A stretch of DNA of 57,015 nt, taken from a virus. Its lineage: Duplodnaviria > Heunggongvirae > Uroviricota > Caudoviricetes. Position numbers and translations under genes: made by a program. Where the stretch lies: IMG/VR virus record IMGVR_UViG_2522572023_000010, one strand, 5' to 3'. A model generated the notes under the pieces. The model made no database searches and was not told the DNA's origin. It saw only the letters and a program-made list of their open reading frames with translations. How positions within the stretch are numbered: position 1 is the first letter of the stretch; each line of letters begins with the position of its first letter. Of this stretch, positions 43,083 to 49,228 are shown one piece after another.

Positions 43083-43472
43083 TCAGGCGGCTGCACCCGC
43101 CGTTTTCTCGTACTTACTGATAGTGATCTCGACCTTCCCTTCCGGGATAACCGGTCCCCACTCCACCAGCATTCTTTTCACCTGGCTGTCGTCTTCCCAC
43201 ACACCCGCGTGTGTCAGGGCGTCAAACAGTGCCTTGTTATAGTTGTCCAGATCGCGGATCCTGTTATCAGGAGGAAACAACACGATCTCCACTGAAGCAG
43301 GTGCCGACGTTGGTTTTGGCAGACGACGTAACTGCTCAACTATTGCTGCACACGCCGCGCTCTGAAATTTTCGCCCCGCCGCGCTTATCAGGCTCTTACC
43401 AGCAAATGCCCCTTTGTTGGGGTGTCGCCAGTACGTGTTCACGCTGGGCGGGAAAGGCAGGATCAGCTTCAT
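43083..43472 (-). CDS. rusA: Holliday junction resolvase RusA
   Basis: 129 aa; PPSVNTYW...DLDNYNKALFDALTHAGVWEDDSQV matches RusA motifs. Confidence 0.85.
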   Translation of the reverse strand: MKLILPFPPSVNTYWRHPNKGAFAGKSLISAAGRKFQSAACAAIVEQLRRLPKPTSAPASVEIVLFPPDNRIRDLDNYNKALFDALTHAGVWEDDSQVKRMLVEWGPVIPEGKVEITISKYEKTAGAAA

Positions 43473-43795
43473 ACTTTCAGGCCTCTCTCATGTAACCAGT
43501 GAGTTGCACGCAGCCTTGCGTTTTCCTCACCGGCAAGCAGTGAGCGGATAATCCCGACCGCTTCGCTGTCGTCGTCCTTCACTGCGGTATGAAGCGTGAT
43601 CCCCCGGGCCACACCACGCTTTATCGTGATGACGCCTTTTTTCTCCAGTGCGCGAAGATGCTCCACCGCTGCATTCACTGAACGGTATCCCAGCATGGTT
43701 GCCACCTCCTGATTGGTTGGCGGGAAGCCACGTTCTTTCTGATAAGAAATCAGCATATCCAGCACCTGCTGCTGGCATTGAGTTAACGTCGTCAT
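43469..43795 (-). CDS. LexA N-terminal-like DNA-binding protein (no peptidase domain)
   Basis: 108 aa with winged-helix region ...FPPTNQEVATMLGYRSVNAAVEHLRALEKKGVI. Confidence 0.6.
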   Translation of the reverse strand: MTTLTQCQQQVLDMLISYQKERGFPPTNQEVATMLGYRSVNAAVEHLRALEKKGVITIKRGVARGITLHTAVKDDDSEAVGIIRSLLAGEENARLRATHWLHERGLKV

Positions 43796-44478
43796 GCCGC
43801 CATCTCCCTGACCAGTTTTTCTGCCTGCTGGCGAACCTGCGCCAGAAAGGCCTCACCACATGCCTCAAGTTCATCGCGCCCGATGTAGCTGATTGCCGGT
43901 CCCTTCCAGGTCTTGTCGAAAACAGCAATAGCACCAGCGAAGAAAGCGCCTGTCGGTACCTGCTTCTCGTCTTTCGGGATAAACCAGGCAGGCAGTTCAA
44001 AACCAATACGCCCTCGAATAAAAGCAATATGGTCCGCATCTTCCGGCCACCACACTTCGCTGGTGGCAGCTTTGATCAGGAAAACATAGCGCCCCCCCTT
44101 ATCACGCATGGCACTGGCATGTTTCATGATGTAACGCATGCCGGTGATGTATTGCCCCTCATGCTGACTGGCGCGGCTGTATGGGGGATTACCAAAGGCA
44201 GCCCCTTTAAGCTCCGCAAGACGTTCTGACCAGTCATGCGCCAGCGCGTTGTCTTCCGCCGTGTAATACGCAGCACATTTGGCGTTATCACCGTCAGTGA
44301 ACAGATCCAGAACAAACGGGCCAAACAGGGTGTTAATTCCCCAGAAAATGTTGTCCGGCGTGCGCCACTGATCGCCCACTTCCTTCAGTTCATGGGCTGG
44401 TTTGTTCCGCAGTTCCACCAGCGCCTGGCAATATTTATTACTCATTAAGCCCCCACGAAATTCCCTGACAGATACCAC
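43792..44478 (-). CDS. phage N6-adenine DNA methyltransferase (Dam-like)
   Basis: Catalytic motif FGNPPY; 228 aa. Confidence 0.8.
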   Translation of the reverse strand: MVSVREFRGGLMSNKYCQALVELRNKPAHELKEVGDQWRTPDNIFWGINTLFGPFVLDLFTDGDNAKCAAYYTAEDNALAHDWSERLAELKGAAFGNPPYSRASQHEGQYITGMRYIMKHASAMRDKGGRYVFLIKAATSEVWWPEDADHIAFIRGRIGFELPAWFIPKDEKQVPTGAFFAGAIAVFDKTWKGPAISYIGRDELEACGEAFLAQVRQQAEKLVREMAA

Positions 44479-44939
44479 TCTTCACCCGATGCAGCGCGCT
44501 TGCTGCTTTTCCGTAAGCACCGCTCACGACGTGCCAGAAAATTGTTTCGTTCTGGCTGGGAGTGGCTTTCACGGAATGCCGCCATCCACACCGTTGCAGC
44601 ACGACGGTATAAGCCCCTGGACTCCAGTTCTTCAGCCTGGCGGGTCAGGCACAAAATCACACGGGGATCGTTAGTGCCGACATAGAAATTGCGCACAGGT
44701 CTGGTTTCACGAACTGGTTGTGGTTCCGGTTCCTGCGCTCTCTCAGTCAGGCGCGGGAAATGTCTGCGTGTATCTCCTTCACAACGGTGAGCCACACGCC
44801 CACTCTGACGTAACTTGCTTGCTGACTGCAGAACGCGCTGCCGTGAGTAACCTGTAAAAGCATCCGCAATGTCTCCGGAAGTACACCCCGGATGGGCTTC
44901 AATGAATTTCTGAACGTCATTTAACAGACTCATGATCAC
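44445..44939 (-). CDS. PerC-like transcriptional regulator (HTH N-terminus plus PerC-type C-terminus)
   Basis: C-terminal LESRGLYRRAATVWMAAF resembles the PerC/Pch signature GLWRRAAxRW. Confidence 0.5.
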   Translation of the reverse strand: MIMSLLNDVQKFIEAHPGCTSGDIADAFTGYSRQRVLQSASKLRQSGRVAHRCEGDTRRHFPRLTERAQEPEPQPVRETRPVRNFYVGTNDPRVILCLTRQAEELESRGLYRRAATVWMAAFRESHSQPERNNFLARRERCLRKSSKRAASGEEWYLSGNFVGA

Positions 44940-45877
44940 CCCCTGAATCCTGCCGGGATCTGGCTGTAGTCCACGTTGTCGTAACTGGATTTGAAGTACG
45001 GGTCTTCGCGTTTTTCGGTGTACGTGCTGACGGACGGCGATAAGCGCAGGGAAAGCTCATCCCATTTTTCCCGCAGCTTCGACGGGCTGAGCACGTTACG
45101 GCACCAGAACGGATCGCGGCTGACGCGGCTGTACATCTCGCAGATTTGTTTGTGAGTACGACCATCCTGCACACACATAAGGCGAATTTCGTTTGCCCAG
45201 GCTGTCCAGTTCGGTTCTTTGGGACGAACCACCTCGCCGTCACATTCGGCGGCCTGCTCGTACAGGGCGATGATTTTTTTCCAGAGCCACTGTGCGCAGG
45301 TCAAATCATCCTGCGTTCCCCACTGGCGCTTTTTAGGGCTGAATACAACCGCATCAGGATGGCGAGTTAAAAACTCCTGTTCAGCCGTCTGCGTGTCCGG
45401 TTGCGAAGCGTCCGGACGAGAAGTTTTTTTATCTGACGGATCATGTTTTGATTTTACTGACGGATCCCCGCCAGATTCTGACGGGTGAAAACCCGCTTTT
45501 TTGCCAGATTTCGACGCATCAAATTTTGACTGGTCAGATTTTGATGCGTCAGATTTTGACGGGTCAGAATCTGACAGTTGAGAAAATGCCGCTGCCTGAA
45601 GCTTCGCAACGTTAAGCTGATAAACATTCGACGCATTGCGGTTACCCTGGCGACGCGCCTTACGCGTTAACCAGCCTTCTGCTTCCAGCCGTGCGATAGC
45701 CGTTCTGACGGTGCTCATCCCCGCACCAATCTGGCGGGCAATGGTTTCAATTGATGGCCAGCACACACCTTCGTCATTACTGAAATCAGCCAGGCGGGCC
45801 ATAATTGCCACGCTGGATAACTTCATGCCTGACGCAGCGCAACCATCCCATACATAGCCGGTTAATTTAGTGCTCAT
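44936..45877 (-). CDS. replication initiator (O-like, winged-helix N-terminus) with internal iteron origin
   Basis: N-terminal HTH region; central SKSDASKSDQSKFDASKSG repeats encoded by DNA iterons; position after the cro/cII-like genes. Confidence 0.75.
   Translation of the reverse strand: MSTKLTGYVWDGCAASGMKLSSVAIMARLADFSNDEGVCWPSIETIARQIGAGMSTVRTAIARLEAEGWLTRKARRQGNRNASNVYQLNVAKLQAAAFSQLSDSDPSKSDASKSDQSKFDASKSGKKAGFHPSESGGDPSVKSKHDPSDKKTSRPDASQPDTQTAEQEFLTRHPDAVVFSPKKRQWGTQDDLTCAQWLWKKIIALYEQAAECDGEVVRPKEPNWTAWANEIRLMCVQDGRTHKQICEMYSRVSRDPFWCRNVLSPSKLREKWDELSLRLSPSVSTYTEKREDPYFKSSYDNVDYSQIPAGFRG
45425..45590. repeat. iterons (about 7 copies of a 15-bp motif CAGATTTTGACGGGT) inside the replication gene; putative origin
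   Basis: cagattctgacgggt / cagatttcgacgcat / caaattttgactggt / cagattttgatgcgt / cagattttgacgggt / cagaatctgacag at regular spacing. Confidence 0.7.
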
Positions 45878-45886
45878 GACCGACCT

Positions 45887-46225
45887 CTATTTCCCTGAAT
45901 TTACGACGAAACTGTTCGAGCGGGCTGAAGCACTCATGCTCATAGCCTTCGCGGAGGTAGATAACCCGTTGTGTTTCCGGTTCCCAACGAATGACTCTGA
46001 CGGGCACTCCGTAGTGATCTTTGAACCAGCGGTTAACTTGTTGCAAAGGACTGTCTCCTTCTGCCGGTTGAAATCACCCACAGCCCACTCTGCAAAGCTG
46101 TGGGTTACAATTTCCCTGTCACCTGGTACATTCACCGCATAGCAATACTCCACCTTCGCTTTTCCACCCGGTACAGGAAGCGCAATCAGTTGCGAGCGAC
46201 GGTAGTGTGTTGTTAAACTGTTCAT
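45887..46225 (-). CDS. hypothetical protein (112 aa), translationally coupled to the upstream gene
   Basis: GGAG ribosome-binding site; ATGA start/stop overlap with the preceding gene. Confidence 0.45.
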
Positions 46226-46806
46226 GCGTTAGTTTCTCCACAACCAGAAGCAATCGACGCCACGACGCCCGGAGCTGCACACTCGCGGGCGTTACTCTTT
46301 TCCGGCGCACAAAAAACACGAAATAACAGTGTTAAATGCTCCTGCCACTTCGCCATTACTTGGTAGCTGTTCTCTTCGATTTGCTCACGCTCAGCCTGGT
46401 CAATAACTCCATCAGCAGTTGCCTTGCGTAAGTACTGGGAATGCTTGCCAATCCATTCTATTGACTCCATCAGCCGCTGATTAATGTCACCATTGTCAAT
46501 GTCATCAATGTCCACCAGCGGCACAAACACCCCATTACTACGACGCGCTATCGCATCCGTTACATGCCTGGTACCACTGGCATCCTGTAAAACCATGGCC
46601 CACTCAAGTGGAAAAATTTGATCCCCACCGCTACGCAGTCTGTTATGCAATTGATCTTTCGCTGGGGTGATATCATCAGATTTATACAAACCAAGAATTT
46701 CCGCTGCTTCCTCATAGCCATGAGGTAAATCAGCAATCGTTCTTCGTATTGCTGCCACCAGCCATGCTGGTTGCTTATCAACTTTCCATTCAGGTTCTTT
46801 ACCCAC
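46222..46806 (-). CDS. hypothetical early regulator in the cII position (194 aa)
   Basis: ORF immediately downstream of the cro-like gene; no motif recognised. Confidence 0.5.
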
Positions 46807-46834: not shown

Positions 46835-47098
46835 TTACGCAGTTGAACCGCTAACTTTTGAATAGCACTCAGGTAATCCATCATTTGGATTGGGGTAAAT
46901 ATCAGGACGCAGTTCATGAGGGGTCACGGACCAGTTTCCCAACTCACAAAGTTGTAAAACCCGTTCTGACGGGACTTGATTGTTAATTACCCAATTGGCG
47001 ACGGATTGAGTGGACTTAAAACCAAAGCGACGGGCTACTTCAGATAAAGACTTTCCCGCAGCCTTTACTGCTTTCTCTGTGTAGTTTTGAGATGACAT
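46835..47098 (-). CDS. cro: Cro-like (YdaS-type) helix-turn-helix regulator
   Basis: 87 aa; HTH LSEVARRFGFKSTQSVANWV; divergent from the repressor gene; GAGGAGAAAGG ribosome-binding site. Confidence 0.75.
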   Translation of the reverse strand: MSSQNYTEKAVKAAGKSLSEVARRFGFKSTQSVANWVINNQVPSERVLQLCELGNWSVTPHELRPDIYPNPNDGLPECYSKVSGSTA

Positions 47099-47104
47099 AC
47101 CTTT

Positions 47105-47165
47105 CTCCTCTGAAATTCAGAGGGATGATGCTACTTAAAATAGCAAATTGCAACTACTTAAAATA
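47105..47165. promoter_or_regulatory. right operator/promoter region (OR-like) between cro and cI
   Basis: Perfect 17-bp palindrome CCTCTGAAATTCAGAGG (47107-47123) and two copies of GCTACTTAAAATAGC-like near-palindromes (47131-47145, 47151-47165). Confidence 0.6.
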
Positions 47166-47909
47166 GAAATGACTAGCGCGTGTGATGTGAGTAATCTTCT
47201 ACCTATGGTAGAAGAACAGAAGTATCCAGATTTCGCCAAGAGACTAAACGAATTGATGACAATCAAAGGAATCTCTGTCACTCAACTCAAAAGTCTTGTG
47301 GGCGTTACATATGAAATGGCTCGTCGATACACAATCGGCGCAGCGAAGCCACGTGTCTCTGTCATGAGTAAACTTGCGTTGGCTCTTGGAGTATCAGCTT
47401 CATATCTAGAATATGGTGTTGGAGATAGAGAGGAATGTAAGGAAATGGCAAGCATCCCCAATCCAACAAAGCCCGATGTATACAGGATAGAAGTTTTGGA
47501 TCTTAGCGTTAGCGCAGGACCTGGGACCTATATGCTTTCAGACTATGTTGATGTGCTCTACGCCATTGAGTTCACAACTGAACATGCCCGTTCTCTTTTC
47601 GGAAACCGTTCTCAGAATGATATAAAAGTTATGACGGTAAATGGAGATAGTATGTCCCCAACTCTTGTTTCCGGGGATCGATTGTTTGTCGACATTTCCG
47701 TTCGCCACTTCCAGACTGATGGAGTTTACTCTTTCGTTTACGGTAAGACTTTCCATGTTAAACGTCTACAAATGCAAGGCAACAAACTAGCTGTTCTTTC
47801 GGATAACCCCGCCTATGAGAAATGGTACATTGATGAGAAGTCGCAAGATCAGCTTTATGTTATGGGTAAGGCACTGATTCATGAGTCGATTAAATATAAT
47901 CGACTTTAA
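47148..47909 (+). CDS. cI: CI-like repressor with S24 (LexA-type) autopeptidase domain
   Basis: N-terminal HTH (MTIKGISVTQLKSLVGVTYEMARRY), C-terminal S24 motifs including GDSMSPT (catalytic Ser) and a downstream Lys; exact start uncertain (ATG overlaps an operator). Confidence 0.85.
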   Translation: MQLLKIEMTSACDVSNLLPMVEEQKYPDFAKRLNELMTIKGISVTQLKSLVGVTYEMARRYTIGAAKPRVSVMSKLALALGVSASYLEYGVGDREECKEMASIPNPTKPDVYRIEVLDLSVSAGPGTYMLSDYVDVLYAIEFTTEHARSLFGNRSQNDIKVMTVNGDSMSPTLVSGDRLFVDISVRHFQTDGVYSFVYGKTFHVKRLQMQGNKLAVLSDNPAYEKWYIDEKSQDQLYVMGKALIHESIKYNRL

Positions 47910-48142: not shown

Positions 48143-49228
48143 ATGATTAATGAACGTACTGAAGCGACAGATGGGGTAGCAGATATGATTTCCACCAATA
48201 CAAAATATTTAGTATGGAACAACAAAGGTGGTGTAGGAAAAACTTTTCTTACATATAATCTTGCCGTTGAGTTTGCTATATCTCATCCGGATCAAGATGT
48301 TGTGGTTATTGACTCATGCCCTCAATCAAACGTTTCAGAAATTATTCTTGGTGGCAATGGTACCGGGGAAGAAAATCTAAATAAATTGCGAGACAGAAAT
48401 GTTACAATCGCAGGTTATATCAAGGAGCGTTTTAGCAAATCTCCTTTGTCTCGTTTAGGAAATGAATCTTCTTACTTTGTACGAGCCCATGATGTTAATG
48501 CAAAAATGCCAGAGAACTTATATATTCTTCCTGGTGATGTCGATCTTGATATCTGTTCACGCTTAATATCTCACATTGGCTCATCCCCAGTAAAAGAAGC
48601 ATGGAAGAAAAGCCGATCTTTGCTGGTAGATCTAATAGCATCTTTTGAAGCCGATAAAAACATTTCTGACAGAGCAAAAACATTTTTTATTGATTGTAAT
48701 CCAAGTTTTGCCAGCTACACAGAATTGGGAGTAGTCGCGGCAAATAGAATAATTATCCCTTGCACTGCCGATGCTGCATCAATTCGCGGAATAAAAAACC
48801 TTGTTAAACTTATTTATGGAGTGTCTATTGACAAGTCAGAACAAGATGAAATGTTCTTAGATTTCAACAAAGAAGCAAAGCAAAACCTTATCGAACTACC
48901 TGAACTACACCTTTTCGTACAAAACCGCTCAAGAACTAATGAAAGTGATGCAGCAAAAGCATTCAAATCACATGCAGAAGAGATCAAAAGAATCACGGAT
49001 GACCTGTTAAATACACATCCTCATCTGTTCACAAATGTGGCTACTTTCGAGAGAGTTCAAAATGTCAAAGATGGTAATACTCTTGCAGCAATAATAAACC
49101 ATGAGGGATGCCCTTTAAGTAGGCTGCAGCATAAGAGTTACACTATCTATGGTATGGCGACCCAAGCTAATAGAGCACAAATTGAAGCACTAGAATCTGA
49201 TGTTTCAACAGTAGTCAAGTGTCTGTAA
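48143..49228 (+). CDS. ParA/MinD-family ATPase (361 aa), lone gene in the rexAB position; candidate exclusion or defence gene
   Basis: Deviant Walker A KGGVGKT, Walker B-like FFIDCNPSF; AT-rich coding sequence; followed by an intrinsic terminator. Confidence 0.75.
   Translation: MINERTEATDGVADMISTNTKYLVWNNKGGVGKTFLTYNLAVEFAISHPDQDVVVIDSCPQSNVSEIILGGNGTGEENLNKLRDRNVTIAGYIKERFSKSPLSRLGNESSYFVRAHDVNAKMPENLYILPGDVDLDICSRLISHIGSSPVKEAWKKSRSLLVDLIASFEADKNISDRAKTFFIDCNPSFASYTELGVVAANRIIIPCTADAASIRGIKNLVKLIYGVSIDKSEQDEMFLDFNKEAKQNLIELPELHLFVQNRSRTNESDAAKAFKSHAEEIKRITDDLLNTHPHLFTNVATFERVQNVKDGNTLAAIINHEGCPLSRLQHKSYTIYGMATQANRAQIEALESDVSTVVKCL

What the first reader, a model, noticed from the sequence alone, without database searches (positions are those of the whole stretch)
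45425..45590. Iteron array (putative origin) embedded in the replication initiator gene
About seven 15-bp repeats related to CAGATTTTGACGGGT are spaced at regular intervals inside the O-like gene, where they encode the SKSD/SKFD peptide repeats. This mirrors the lambda origin lying within O. The following gene is a PerC-like regulator rather than a P or DnaC-type helicase loader, so replication probably relies on host loading factors.
Basis: partly seen in the sequence, partly recalled or inferred. Interest (0 to 1): 0.45.

Follow-up and report, generated by a model that had tools for sequence, protein, structure and literature searches.

The report
Prophage replication origin inside initiator gene
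The repeats are very probably the replication origin of a common E. coli/Shigella lambda-like prophage, built like the origin inside lambda's O gene, except that the phage has no helicase loader and its initiator ends in a copy of the host DnaT protein's tail.

Summary
Window 45503-45577 has five head-to-tail 15-bp units with a 13-bp near-palindromic core (GTCAAAATCTGAC on the coding strand). A sixth, more symmetric copy lies at 45467-45485. Next comes an AT-rich segment (45421-45466) of two 24-bp repeats, each starting with GATC. All lie in the linker of a 313-aa initiator (44936-45877, minus strand).

Across 80 Enterobacterales loci the array persists: 68 keep at least 3 in-phase copies. The constraint is on the DNA, not the peptide. 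Same-amino-acid codons are identical in 92% of cases in the repeats, against 43% in the better-conserved N-domain. Lys is AAA in 213 of 213 cases. The repeat sequence changes when the N-terminal winged-helix domain changes, not when the C-terminal domain changes.

No P, DnaC or DnaB homologue exists in the 57-kb window, nor is one annotated in phage SfII. The next gene is PerC-like.

Extra finding: the initiator ends in the conserved C-terminal motif of host DnaT (SQIPAGFRG against SQIPPGFRG). Among related loci, initiators with such an end-module almost never sit next to a loader gene (3 of 67). Those without it always do (5 of 5).

Verdict: a lambda-like in-gene iteron origin, loader-less variant. 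Origin activity is untested.

The parts
44936..45877 (-). Replication initiator gene, 313 aa: N-terminal winged helix, repeat-coded linker, lambda-O-like C-terminal domain, DnaT-like tail
   Evidence: ORF. PHROG 391 'replication initiation O-like', E 1e-134. Pfam HTH_36, E 4e-11. 99.4% identical to the phage SfIV replication protein. Present in 2724 of 5426 complete E. coli genomes.
45593..45877 (-). Codons 1-95: winged-helix DNA-binding domain (HTH_36), the presumed iteron binder
   Evidence: Pfam HTH_36, GntR, MarR and DnaD_N hits over aa 21-94. PDB MarR-type matches over aa 42-119. The iteron sequence changes with this domain.
45503..45577 (-). Five head-to-tail 15-bp iterons; 13-bp cores at 45563-75, 45548-60, 45533-45, 45518-30 and 45503-15
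   Evidence: Conserved in phase in 68 of 80 related loci, mostly 4-9 copies. Synonymous sites are frozen.
45483..45502 (-). Spacer: A-run, about 6 nt, then T-run (coding strand AAAAAAGCGGGTTTTCACCC)
   Evidence: Read from the sequence. The A-run/T-run pattern recurs in orthologues. Function unknown.
45467..45485 (-). Sixth, isolated iteron: 19-bp imperfect palindrome CCCGTCAGAATCTGGCGGG
   Evidence: Present at the same place in nearly all orthologues. In divergent ones it becomes CCTCCAGAATCTGGAGG.
45421..45466 (-). AT-rich segment: two 24-bp repeats that begin with GATC (GATC at 45439-45442 and 45463-45466); candidate DNA-unwinding element
   Evidence: 30% GC, the minimum of the 2-kb profile. 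Across 74 loci the segment is 62% AT against 48% for the genes, 57 loci have exactly two GATC, and the spacing is 24 bp in 59 of 71 pairs. The Asp codon there is GAT in 126 of 129 cases.
45032..45382 (-). Codons 166-282: helical domain homologous to the C-terminal domain of lambda O
44939..44980 (-). Last 14 codons (DNVDYSQIPAGFRG): copy of the conserved C-terminal motif of host primosomal protein DnaT
   Evidence: 8 of 9 identical to the E. coli DnaT C-terminus, both at the very end of the protein. The motif is conserved in 105 DnaT orthologues and in 47 related phage initiators. Predicted disordered.
44445..44939 (-). Next gene: MarR-like winged helix plus PerC domain (YfdN-like); not a helicase loader
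   Evidence: Pfam PerC, E 7.8e-9, above cutoff; weak MarR_2. PHROG 1324 'transcriptional activator'. It follows the initiator in only 16 of 47 tail-bearing loci.
45867..46046 (-). Small DUF4222 gene that overlaps the initiator start codon
   Evidence: Pfam PF13973, E 6e-19. Found just upstream of the initiator in 69 of 84 loci.
43792..44478 (-). Phage Dam (GATC) methyltransferase in the same operon
   Evidence: Pfam Dam, E 1e-45. A Dam homologue follows the initiator in many related loci.

Best explanation
This is the phage's replication origin, placed inside the gene of the protein that fires it, as in lambda.

Shown:
- There is a tight array of five 13-bp near-palindromic sites, plus one more symmetric site.
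- An AT-rich segment made of two GATC-led 24-bp repeats follows.
- The whole lies in the linker between the winged-helix N-domain and the lambda-O-like C-domain.
- Selection holds it at the DNA level.
- Its sequence changes with the N-domain.

Inferred:
- After the rightward early promoter is derepressed, the initiator is made. Its N-domain binds the sites as dimers and forms a compact nucleoprotein array.
- That array strains and opens the neighbouring AT-rich segment.
- The C-terminal part then brings in the host DnaB helicase, because the phage has no P, DnaC or DnaB gene of its own.
- The most likely handle is the last 11-18 residues, a copy of the conserved C-terminus of host DnaT. It would connect the origin complex to the host primosome or to DnaB-DnaC.
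- The paired GATC sites, with a phage Dam gene in the same operon, may add methylation or SeqA control.
For: Repeats and their statistics.

Conservation: 68 of 80 loci from Escherichia, Pantoea, Providencia, Proteus, Yersinia, Rahnella, Ewingella, Tatumella and others keep at least 3 in-phase copies at 15-bp spacing, starting at gene nt 297-327.

DNA-level constraint:
- Against the reference, N-domain amino-acid identity is 85% but same-amino-acid codons are identical in only 43% of cases (n=3236). In the repeats amino-acid identity is 75% but codon identity is 92% (n=646), p about 1e-130.
- With repeats defined by peptide alone: Lys is AAA 213/213 (62% elsewhere in these genes), Glu is GAA 86/87, Ser at unit position 4 is TCT 79% (9% elsewhere), Asp is GAC 82%.
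- The least conserved unit positions are the whole first codon, including its first and second bases, which form the spacer between cores.

Covariation:
- phiP27-type N-domains (44-47% identity) have TTCAGAATCTGAA.
- L074, L080 and L082 have CCTCCAGAATCTGGAGG.
- L089 has a 67%-identical N-domain but a 97.5%-identical C-part and a 91%-identical PerC gene. Its sites are GTCAAnnnTTGAC.

AT-rich element with conserved GATC pairs.

Same position and order as the lambda origin in O.

No loader. SfIV, with a 99.4% identical initiator, is an isolated, characterised phage (PMC3851460).

Tail. End-module against loader gene: 3 of 67 against 5 of 5, Fisher p 4e-6, on both C-domain backgrounds.

Literature: iterons inside the initiator gene are the rule in lambda, P22 and L (PMC8022706).
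Against: - There is no experimental evidence of origin activity or of protein binding here, and none was found in the papers I could search.
- Covariation with the N-domain is partly confounded with the neighbouring upstream genes.
- The AT-rich segment is short (about 46 bp) and only moderately AT-rich. No DnaA box lies nearby.
- A 15-bp spacing puts neighbouring sites on nearly opposite faces of the helix, unlike lambda's 20-24 bp, so the geometry of the complex is unknown.
- The target of the DnaT tail is unknown. The latest structural paper suggests that the DnaT N-domain, not its tail, recruits DnaB/DnaC (PMC13377028).
- Two loci (L080, L082) have both a tail and a DnaC-like gene.
- The loci are phylogenetically related, so the p-values overstate independence.
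Confidence: 0.75

Rival explanations
1. The DNA repeats are only a by-product of a repetitive, flexible Ser/Lys/Asp peptide linker that expanded by slippage. They have no role as DNA.
For: The repeats encode a low-complexity peptide in a linker. Copy number varies between loci, mostly 4-9, as slippage would give.
Against: Synonymous sites are far more conserved in the repeats than in the better-conserved N-domain, 92% against 43%. Lys is AAA in 213 of 213 cases, and K-to-N changes (AAA to AAT) occur while the silent AAA-to-AAG never does. The peptide itself varies freely at the first residue of each unit. The same Asp residue is coded GAC in the iterons but GAT in the GATC repeats.
Confidence: 0.03
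2. The repeats are binding sites for the initiator, but they serve autoregulation, copy control or exclusion of related phages, and the true origin is elsewhere.
For: Iterons of plasmids also act in copy control and handcuffing (PMC4980987). Cloned lambda iterons inhibit related phages (PMC3349717).
Against: No other cluster of the motif exists in the window; two scattered hits match chance expectation. The array is joined to a conserved AT-rich element in the lambda order and position. The block of N-domain plus repeats plus AT-rich segment moves as one unit among different C-terminal modules, as an initiator-origin pair should.
Confidence: 0.1
3. The sites are bound by another protein of the operon (the PerC/MarR-like protein or DUF4222) or by a host factor, not by the initiator's N-domain.
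For: The next gene has a weak MarR-like winged helix. DUF4222 is a frequent upstream neighbour.
Against: The PerC-like gene follows the initiator in only 16 of 47 tail-bearing loci, while the repeats are nearly universal. In L089 the PerC-like protein is 91% identical but the sites differ. DUF4222 is missing in 15 of 84 loci, most of which still have repeats. No DnaA box is nearby.
Confidence: 0.05
4. Helicase recruitment does not use the DnaT-like tail. The lambda-O-like C-domain binds host DnaB or DnaC directly, or an unrecognised small phage protein acts as the loader.
For: The C-domain has weak fold similarity to the SPP1 G39P loader and to DnaD domains. YeP2-type initiators lack the tail and also have no known loader. 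Several neighbouring genes are of unknown function.
Against: The tail is conserved on two unrelated C-domain backgrounds and is nearly exclusive with loader genes. In some phages it matches up to 18 residues of DnaT, including the host-type variant GFRGAK.
Confidence: 0.3

Closest known systems
Bacteriophage lambda ori and the O-P replicon
   Same: Iterons lie inside the initiator gene, between its DNA-binding N-domain and its C-domain. An AT-rich segment follows them in the direction of transcription. The C-domain is homologous to lambda O aa 139-270 (35% identity). The setting is the same: the rightward early operon after cro- and cII-like genes.
   Different: The N-domain is Pfam HTH_36, not Phage_rep_O. 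There are five 13-bp sites packed at 15 bp plus one more, against four 18-bp sites at 20-24 bp. The AT-rich part is made of GATC-led 24-bp repeats. There is no P gene. The initiator ends in a DnaT-like tail, whereas lambda O ends ...TDWIYGVDL.
P22 gene 18/12 and phage L origins
   Same: These are lambdoid initiators with their own iterons inside the coding region. L has six imprecise 11-bp repeats (PMC8022706).
   Different: Those phages carry their own DnaB-type helicase (gp12). This module carries no helicase or loader.
Iteron plasmids (pSC101, R6K, RK2 and P1 oriR type)
   Same: A single winged-helix initiator binds tandem direct repeats next to an AT-rich region and must take DnaB-DnaC from the host (general knowledge; PMC4980987). 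Clustered GATC sites in the unwinding region recall P1 oriR and oriC (my own knowledge).
   Different: The origin here lies inside the initiator's reading frame. No DnaA box is nearby. No small plasmid was seen that uses this gene as its only replicon.
E. coli primosomal protein DnaT
   Same: The extreme C-terminal motif is shared...D[VI]N..S.PD..IPxGFRG in DnaT...SQIPAGFRG here; up to about 12 of 18 identical in some related phage initiators. This is probably why databases call these phage proteins 'primosomal protein I'.
   Different: The Pfam DnaT domain is not detected, and the profile comparison gives 0.3% probability. There is no PDB hit with the C-domain profile, and DnaT is absent from the listed fold matches. 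Only the tail is shared.

Membership tests
Lambda-type in-gene iteron origin | Several direct repeats inside the initiator gene, between the DNA-binding domain and the C-terminal domain | tested here: met
   Five tandem copies plus one at codons 101-137. The lambda iterons lie at O codons 117-145.
Lambda-type in-gene iteron origin | AT-rich segment directly after the iterons in the direction of transcription | tested here: met
   45421-45466, 30% GC, the minimum of the 2-kb profile. Conserved across 74 loci at 62% AT.
Lambda-type in-gene iteron origin | Repeats conserved as DNA, and changing together with the initiator's DNA-binding domain | tested here: met
   Codon tests. Covariation.
Lambda-type in-gene iteron origin | Initiator binds the repeats and the segment supports replication | not testable with these tools
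   Needs a footprint or EMSA and an ori-plasmid or initiation-mapping experiment.
Lambda O-P replicon (strict membership) | N-terminal domain of Pfam family Phage_rep_O | tested here: not met
   The window protein hits HTH_36 and has no Phage_rep_O hit. Lambda O hits Phage_rep_O at E 6e-36.
Lambda O-P replicon (strict membership) | C-terminal domain homologous to that of lambda O | tested here: met
   tblastn: 35% identity over about 149 aligned positions, E 9e-23.
Lambda O-P replicon (strict membership) | Adjacent P-type helicase loader gene | tested here: not met
   No hit of lambda P, DnaC or DnaB-like queries in the window at E up to 1. The next gene is PerC-like.
PerC family (next gene) | Pfam PerC domain above the curated cutoff | tested here: met
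   36.1 bits against a cutoff of 22.6, aa 100-151. The NCBIfam ANR hit is below its cutoff.
DnaT family | DnaT DNA-binding domain (three-helix bundle, Pfam PF17948) | tested here: not met
   No Pfam hit. hhalign probability 0.3%. DnaT is not among the PDB sequence or listed fold matches.
DnaT family | Conserved extreme C-terminal motif IPxGFRG | tested here: met
   SQIPAGFRG against SQIPPGFRG at both C-termini. The motif is nearly invariant in 105 DnaT orthologues.
DnaD-like / G39P-like helicase-loading adaptor fold (C-domain) | Fold similarity to DnaD C-terminal or G39P N-terminal domains | tested here: inconclusive
DnaA-dependent origin | DnaA boxes near the iterons | tested here: not met
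   No TTWTNCACA between 40.9 and 49.4 kb; 6 in the window against 5 expected.

The most novel reading that the evidence does not exclude
The conserved C-terminal tail of DnaT is a portable docking peptide for the host helicase-loading machinery (DnaB-DnaC, PriA or PriB). A large group of loader-less lambdoid phages has copied it onto their origin-binding initiators. By doing so they fire a sequence-specific origin through the host's replication-restart primosome. The phage data would then point to the still-unknown element by which DnaT recruits DnaB/DnaC.
Probability: 0.35. Interest if true: 0.7.

Novelty: new variant of a known kind. Interest (0 to 1): 0.45.

Why it matters
The initiator gene matches DNA in about half of complete E. 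coli genomes (2724 of 5426; about 1580 carry it near full length). It also serves Shigella serotype-converting phages SfII and SfIV, so locating its origin helps in reading prophage induction and in designing replicon typing.

More generally, the family is a natural swap experiment. One DNA-binding domain plus origin is joined to at least five different helicase-recruitment solutions: a DnaT-like tail, a YeP2-type extension, a P-like gene, a DnaC-like gene, or DnaC-like plus DnaB-like genes.

How the DnaT-containing preprimosome recruits DnaB/DnaC is stated to be unknown (PMC5778457, PMC13377028). A phage initiator that carries only DnaT's tail and needs no loader gives a simple genetic handle on that question.

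Tried and rejected
- **PDB sequence searches.** The whole protein found only generic MarR winged helices. A C-domain profile found nothing.
- **Homology of the C-domain to DnaT.** Profile-profile comparison was negative, so I dropped the idea that the whole C-terminal half derives from DnaT; only the tail does.
- **DnaA boxes.** None near the array.
- **Plasmid collection.** I looked for a small plasmid that uses this gene as its sole replicon, which would have been near-proof of origin function. Hits were prophages in megaplasmids, mislabelled chromosomes or phage-sized circles.
- **Literature.**
  - The SfV genome paper (PMC134923) is not held.
  - The SfIV paper says nothing about an origin.
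  - The Stx-phage replication-region paper mentions no iterons, DnaT or PerC.
  - Reviews and the 2026 preprimosome paper do not describe a role for the DnaT tail.
- **PerC-like protein as an obligatory replication partner.** Considered and rejected.
- **Single-linkage clustering of C-terminal regions.** It merged everything because of composite proteins; I replaced it with domain-wise searches.

Full report
**1. What is there**

The finding lies inside a 313-codon gene on the minus strand, window 44936-45877. Its product has four parts:
- An N-terminal winged-helix domain (Pfam HTH_36, E 4e-11, aa 23-70; weaker GntR, MarR and DnaD_N hits).
- A low-complexity linker, aa about 96-165.
- A helical C-terminal domain that tblastn aligns with lambda O aa 139-270 (35% identity, E 9e-23).
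- A short, predicted-disordered tail.

PHROGs places the whole protein in 'replication initiation O-like' (phrog_391, E 1e-134).

The gene sits in a standard lambdoid early-right operon:
- A cI-like repressor (47148-47909, + strand), divergent from the operon.
- A cro-like gene (46835-47098).
- A YmfL/CII-like gene (46222-46806).
- The initiator (44936-45877).
- A PerC-like gene (44445-44939).
- Dam, a LexA-DNA-binding-domain protein, RusA, KilA-N, an HNH/DUF968 protein and Q.

The module is 97-98% identical in phages SfII, SfIV, Kati, PhiR49 and several vB_Eco phages. The gene matches DNA in 2724 of 5426 complete E. coli genomes. The window is 100% identical over this gene to E. coli O145:H28 RM12761.

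**2. The repeats**

The repeat finder and TRF give five strictly tandem 15-bp units at 45505-45579, with TRF scores of 79 at period 15 and 93 at period 30. A sixth unit lies at 45472-45486.

Two degenerate copies sharing TGACGGATC lie at 45428-45442 and 45452-45466.

Read on the coding strand, each unit is xxG TCA AAA TCT GAC, which gives P/A/Q-S-K-S/F-D. The core GTCAAAATCTGAC is a near-palindrome. The outermost tandem copy (45563-45575) reads as the exact palindrome GTCAGAATCTGAC with one mismatch. The sixth copy extends to a 19-bp imperfect palindrome, CCCGTCAGAATCTGGCGGG.

With up to 2 mismatches the 13-mer has 9 hits in 57 kb. Seven are within 106 bp, two of them on opposite strands of one site, against 1.2 expected for the whole window. 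The cluster probability is about 1e-16.

**3. DNA signal or peptide signal?**

This is the key question, because a slippage-prone peptide linker would also give tandem DNA repeats.

I fetched 80 loci that encode relatives of the N-domain, one genome per species, across Enterobacterales. Sixty-eight keep at least 3 in-phase 13-mers at 15-bp spacing. These start at gene nt 297-327, and copy number is mostly 4 to 9.

- *Test A.* I compared 43 orthologues with the reference codon by codon. The N-domain is 85% identical in protein, but codons for identical residues are the same in only 43% of cases (n=3236), so synonymous sites there are close to saturated. The repeat codons 101-120 are less conserved as protein (75%), yet identical residues use the identical codon in 92% of cases (n=646) (p about 1e-130).
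- *Test B.* I defined repeat units by peptide pattern only, so there was no selection on DNA:

| Residue in the repeat unit | Codon in the repeats | Same codon elsewhere in these genes |
|---|---|---|
| Lys | AAA 213/213 | 62% |
| Glu | GAA 86/87 | 57% |
| Ser, unit position 4 | TCT 79% | 9% |
| Asp | GAC 82% | 46% |

- *Test C.* The most variable positions of the unit are the three bases of the first codon, including its first and second bases. Third positions inside the core are nearly fixed. AAA-to-AAT (Lys to Asn) occurs 63 times and the silent AAA-to-AAG never.

The constraint is therefore on the DNA sequence.

**4. Who reads the sites?**

The repeat sequence follows the N-domain:
- N-domains at least 65% identical to the window's keep GTCAAAATCTGAC.
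- phiP27 and L078 (44-47% identity) have TTCAGAATCTGAA.
- L074, L080 and L082 (about 43-45%) have CCTCCAGAATCTGGAGG. In L080 a related unit repeats with a longer period of roughly 33 bp.

L089 is a natural domain swap. Its N-domain is 67% identical, its C-part 97.5% and its PerC-like gene 91%. It carries five 15-bp units of a different core, GTCAAnnnTTGAC.

The PerC-like gene follows the initiator in only 16 of 47 tail-bearing loci.

So the initiator's own N-domain is the likely binder. This rests on covariation, not on a binding assay.

**5. The rest of the origin**

Directly after the sixth site comes window 45421-45466, the lowest-GC 40-mer of the 2 kb examined (30%). On the coding strand it reads GATCCGTCAGTAAAATCAAAACAT GATCCGTCAGATAAAAAAAC. 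These are two 24-bp repeats, each beginning with GATC and each carrying a half-iteron (CCGTCAG).

Across 74 loci:
- The segment averages 62% AT, against 48% for the genes.
- 57 loci have exactly two GATC.
- The GATC spacing is 24 bp in 59 of 71 pairs.
- The Asp codon that creates GATC is GAT in 126 of 129 cases, the opposite preference from the iterons a few codons upstream.

Order and position match lambda: iterons first, then the AT-rich part, read in the direction of transcription, between the two protein domains. The lambda iterons lie at O codons 117-145.

A phage Dam gene lies two genes downstream. A Dam homologue follows the initiator in many related loci. A link between Dam methylation or SeqA and this origin is a hypothesis only.

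No DnaA box is near.

**6. Helicase loading**

None was found:
- tblastn of lambda P, E. coli DnaC and the phiP27 DnaC-like and DnaB-like proteins finds nothing in the window at E up to 1.
- PHROG scans of 20 further genes of the early, lysis and integration regions find no helicase or loader.
- The complete SfII genome has none annotated.
- SfIV, with a 99.4% identical initiator, was isolated and characterised as a phage (PMC3851460).

The phage must therefore use host DnaB, and almost certainly host DnaC.

**7. The DnaT-like tail**

The protein ends ...YDNVDYSQIPAGFRG. E. coli DnaT ends ...VSEPDSQIPPGFRG. That is 8 of 9 identical, both at the very C-terminus.

In 105 Enterobacteriaceae DnaT orthologues the motif [IVL]S[EQ]PDxxIPxGFRG is among the best-conserved parts of the protein. 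A minority variant ends GFRGAK.

Related phage initiators match it over up to 18 residues. L022 has DVNAVSQVDTTIPAGFRG and L031 has DINAISQPNDTIPPGFRG. L023 and L024 have GPDKAIPAGFRGAK, matching the minority DnaT variant.

The rest of the protein is not DnaT-like. The database name 'primosomal protein I' therefore probably rests on the tail alone.

Domain-wise classification of the related initiators shows a combinatorial design. The central domain is either lambda-O-like (A) or Pfam Phg_2220_C (B).

| Initiator ending | Loci | Recognisable loader gene downstream |
|---|---|---|
| DnaT-like tail (5 on A, 40 on B, 2 on another domain) | 47 | 3 (L080 and L082 with an adjacent DnaC-like gene; L070 with a distant P-like ORF) |
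| About 70-aa YeP2-type extension (8 on A, 12 on B) | 20 | 0 |
| Neither end-module (L074 and L050; L065 and L073; L078) | 5 | 5 (P-like; DnaC-like; DnaC-like plus DnaB-like) |

Lambda and phiP27 also have no end-module and have a loader gene. The contrast of 3 of 67 against 5 of 5 gives Fisher p 4e-6. The loci are related, so this overstates independence, but the pattern recurs on both the A and B backgrounds.

This suggests that the end-modules replace a phage loader by coupling the initiator to host machinery.

What the DnaT tail binds is not stated in the papers I could read. [quoted passage not shown]

**8. Comparison and novelty**

Iterons inside the initiator gene are the known rule for lambda, P22 and L (PMC8022706). 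A specialist would expect an origin here.

It is not a strict member of the lambda O-P replicon:
- The N-domain family differs.
- There is no P gene.
- The sites are shorter and packed at 15 bp.
- The AT-rich part is a GATC-led repeat.

It works like an iteron plasmid in relying on host DnaB-DnaC.

I found no description of this origin, or of the tail-against-loader pattern, in the searchable literature. The SfV genome paper and the Weigel and Seitz review of phage replication modules could not be read, so prior description cannot be excluded.

**9. Verdict**

- It is best filed as a loader-less variant of the lambdoid in-gene iteron origin.
- The ordinary part is an origin in an O-like gene. 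The more interesting part is the borrowed DnaT tail and its near-exclusivity with loader genes.

Noticed in passing
window 44939-44980 (-); L022, L023, L031 and other loci: The initiator ends in the conserved C-terminal motif of host DnaT (IPxGFRG). In related loci this tail, or a YeP2-type extension, is nearly exclusive with phage loader genes (3 of 67 against 5 of 5).
   Followed up: yes
window 45439-45442 and 45463-45466: Two GATC sites exactly 24 bp apart in the AT-rich segment are conserved across genera by a forced GAT Asp codon (126 of 129). A phage Dam methylase gene lies in the same operon (43792-44478). This hints at methylation or SeqA control of the origin.
   Followed up: partly
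window 45867-46046 (-) against 45887-46225 (-): A 59-aa DUF4222 ORF (Pfam E 6e-19) overlaps the initiator start codon by 11 nt. It also overlaps, in another frame, the 112-aa ORF that phage records annotate (PHROG 1170). DUF4222 sits just upstream of the initiator in 69 of 84 loci and is absent from all loci with a DnaC-like loader. Which ORF is real, and what DUF4222 does, is open.
   Followed up: partly
L012-L018, L032, L056 and others (Providencia, Proteus, Yersinia, Rahnella, Ewingella): Instead of the DnaT tail, these initiators carry a conserved C-terminal extension of about 70 aa (...W[KQ]..A.QR...AA) with no Pfam match, and also have no loader gene. It may be a second kind of host-recruitment module, and it is seen mainly in Morganellaceae and Yersiniaceae.
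   Followed up: partly
L077, L087 (E. coli chromosomes): These e14-like loci keep only the first 79 residues of the initiator, fused to unrelated sequence (455 aa), with no iterons. They look like decayed replication modules.
   Followed up: no
window 48143-49228 (+): A ParA-like ATPase gene (PHROG 164, E 2e-46) lies next to the cI-like repressor in an integrated prophage. A 'partition protein' lies near cI in Klebsiella phage 1 LV-2017 too.
   Followed up: no
window 45483-45502: The conserved spacer between iterons 5 and 6 has an A-run, about 6 nt, then a T-run (AAAAAAGCGGGTTTTCACCC on the coding strand). On the + strand it resembles a small hairpin plus T-run. It may be a bend or a protein site; function unknown.
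   Followed up: no
window 43469-43795 (-): A 108-aa protein consisting only of a LexA DNA-binding domain (Pfam E 3e-19), without the protease domain, is encoded in the replication operon.
   Followed up: no
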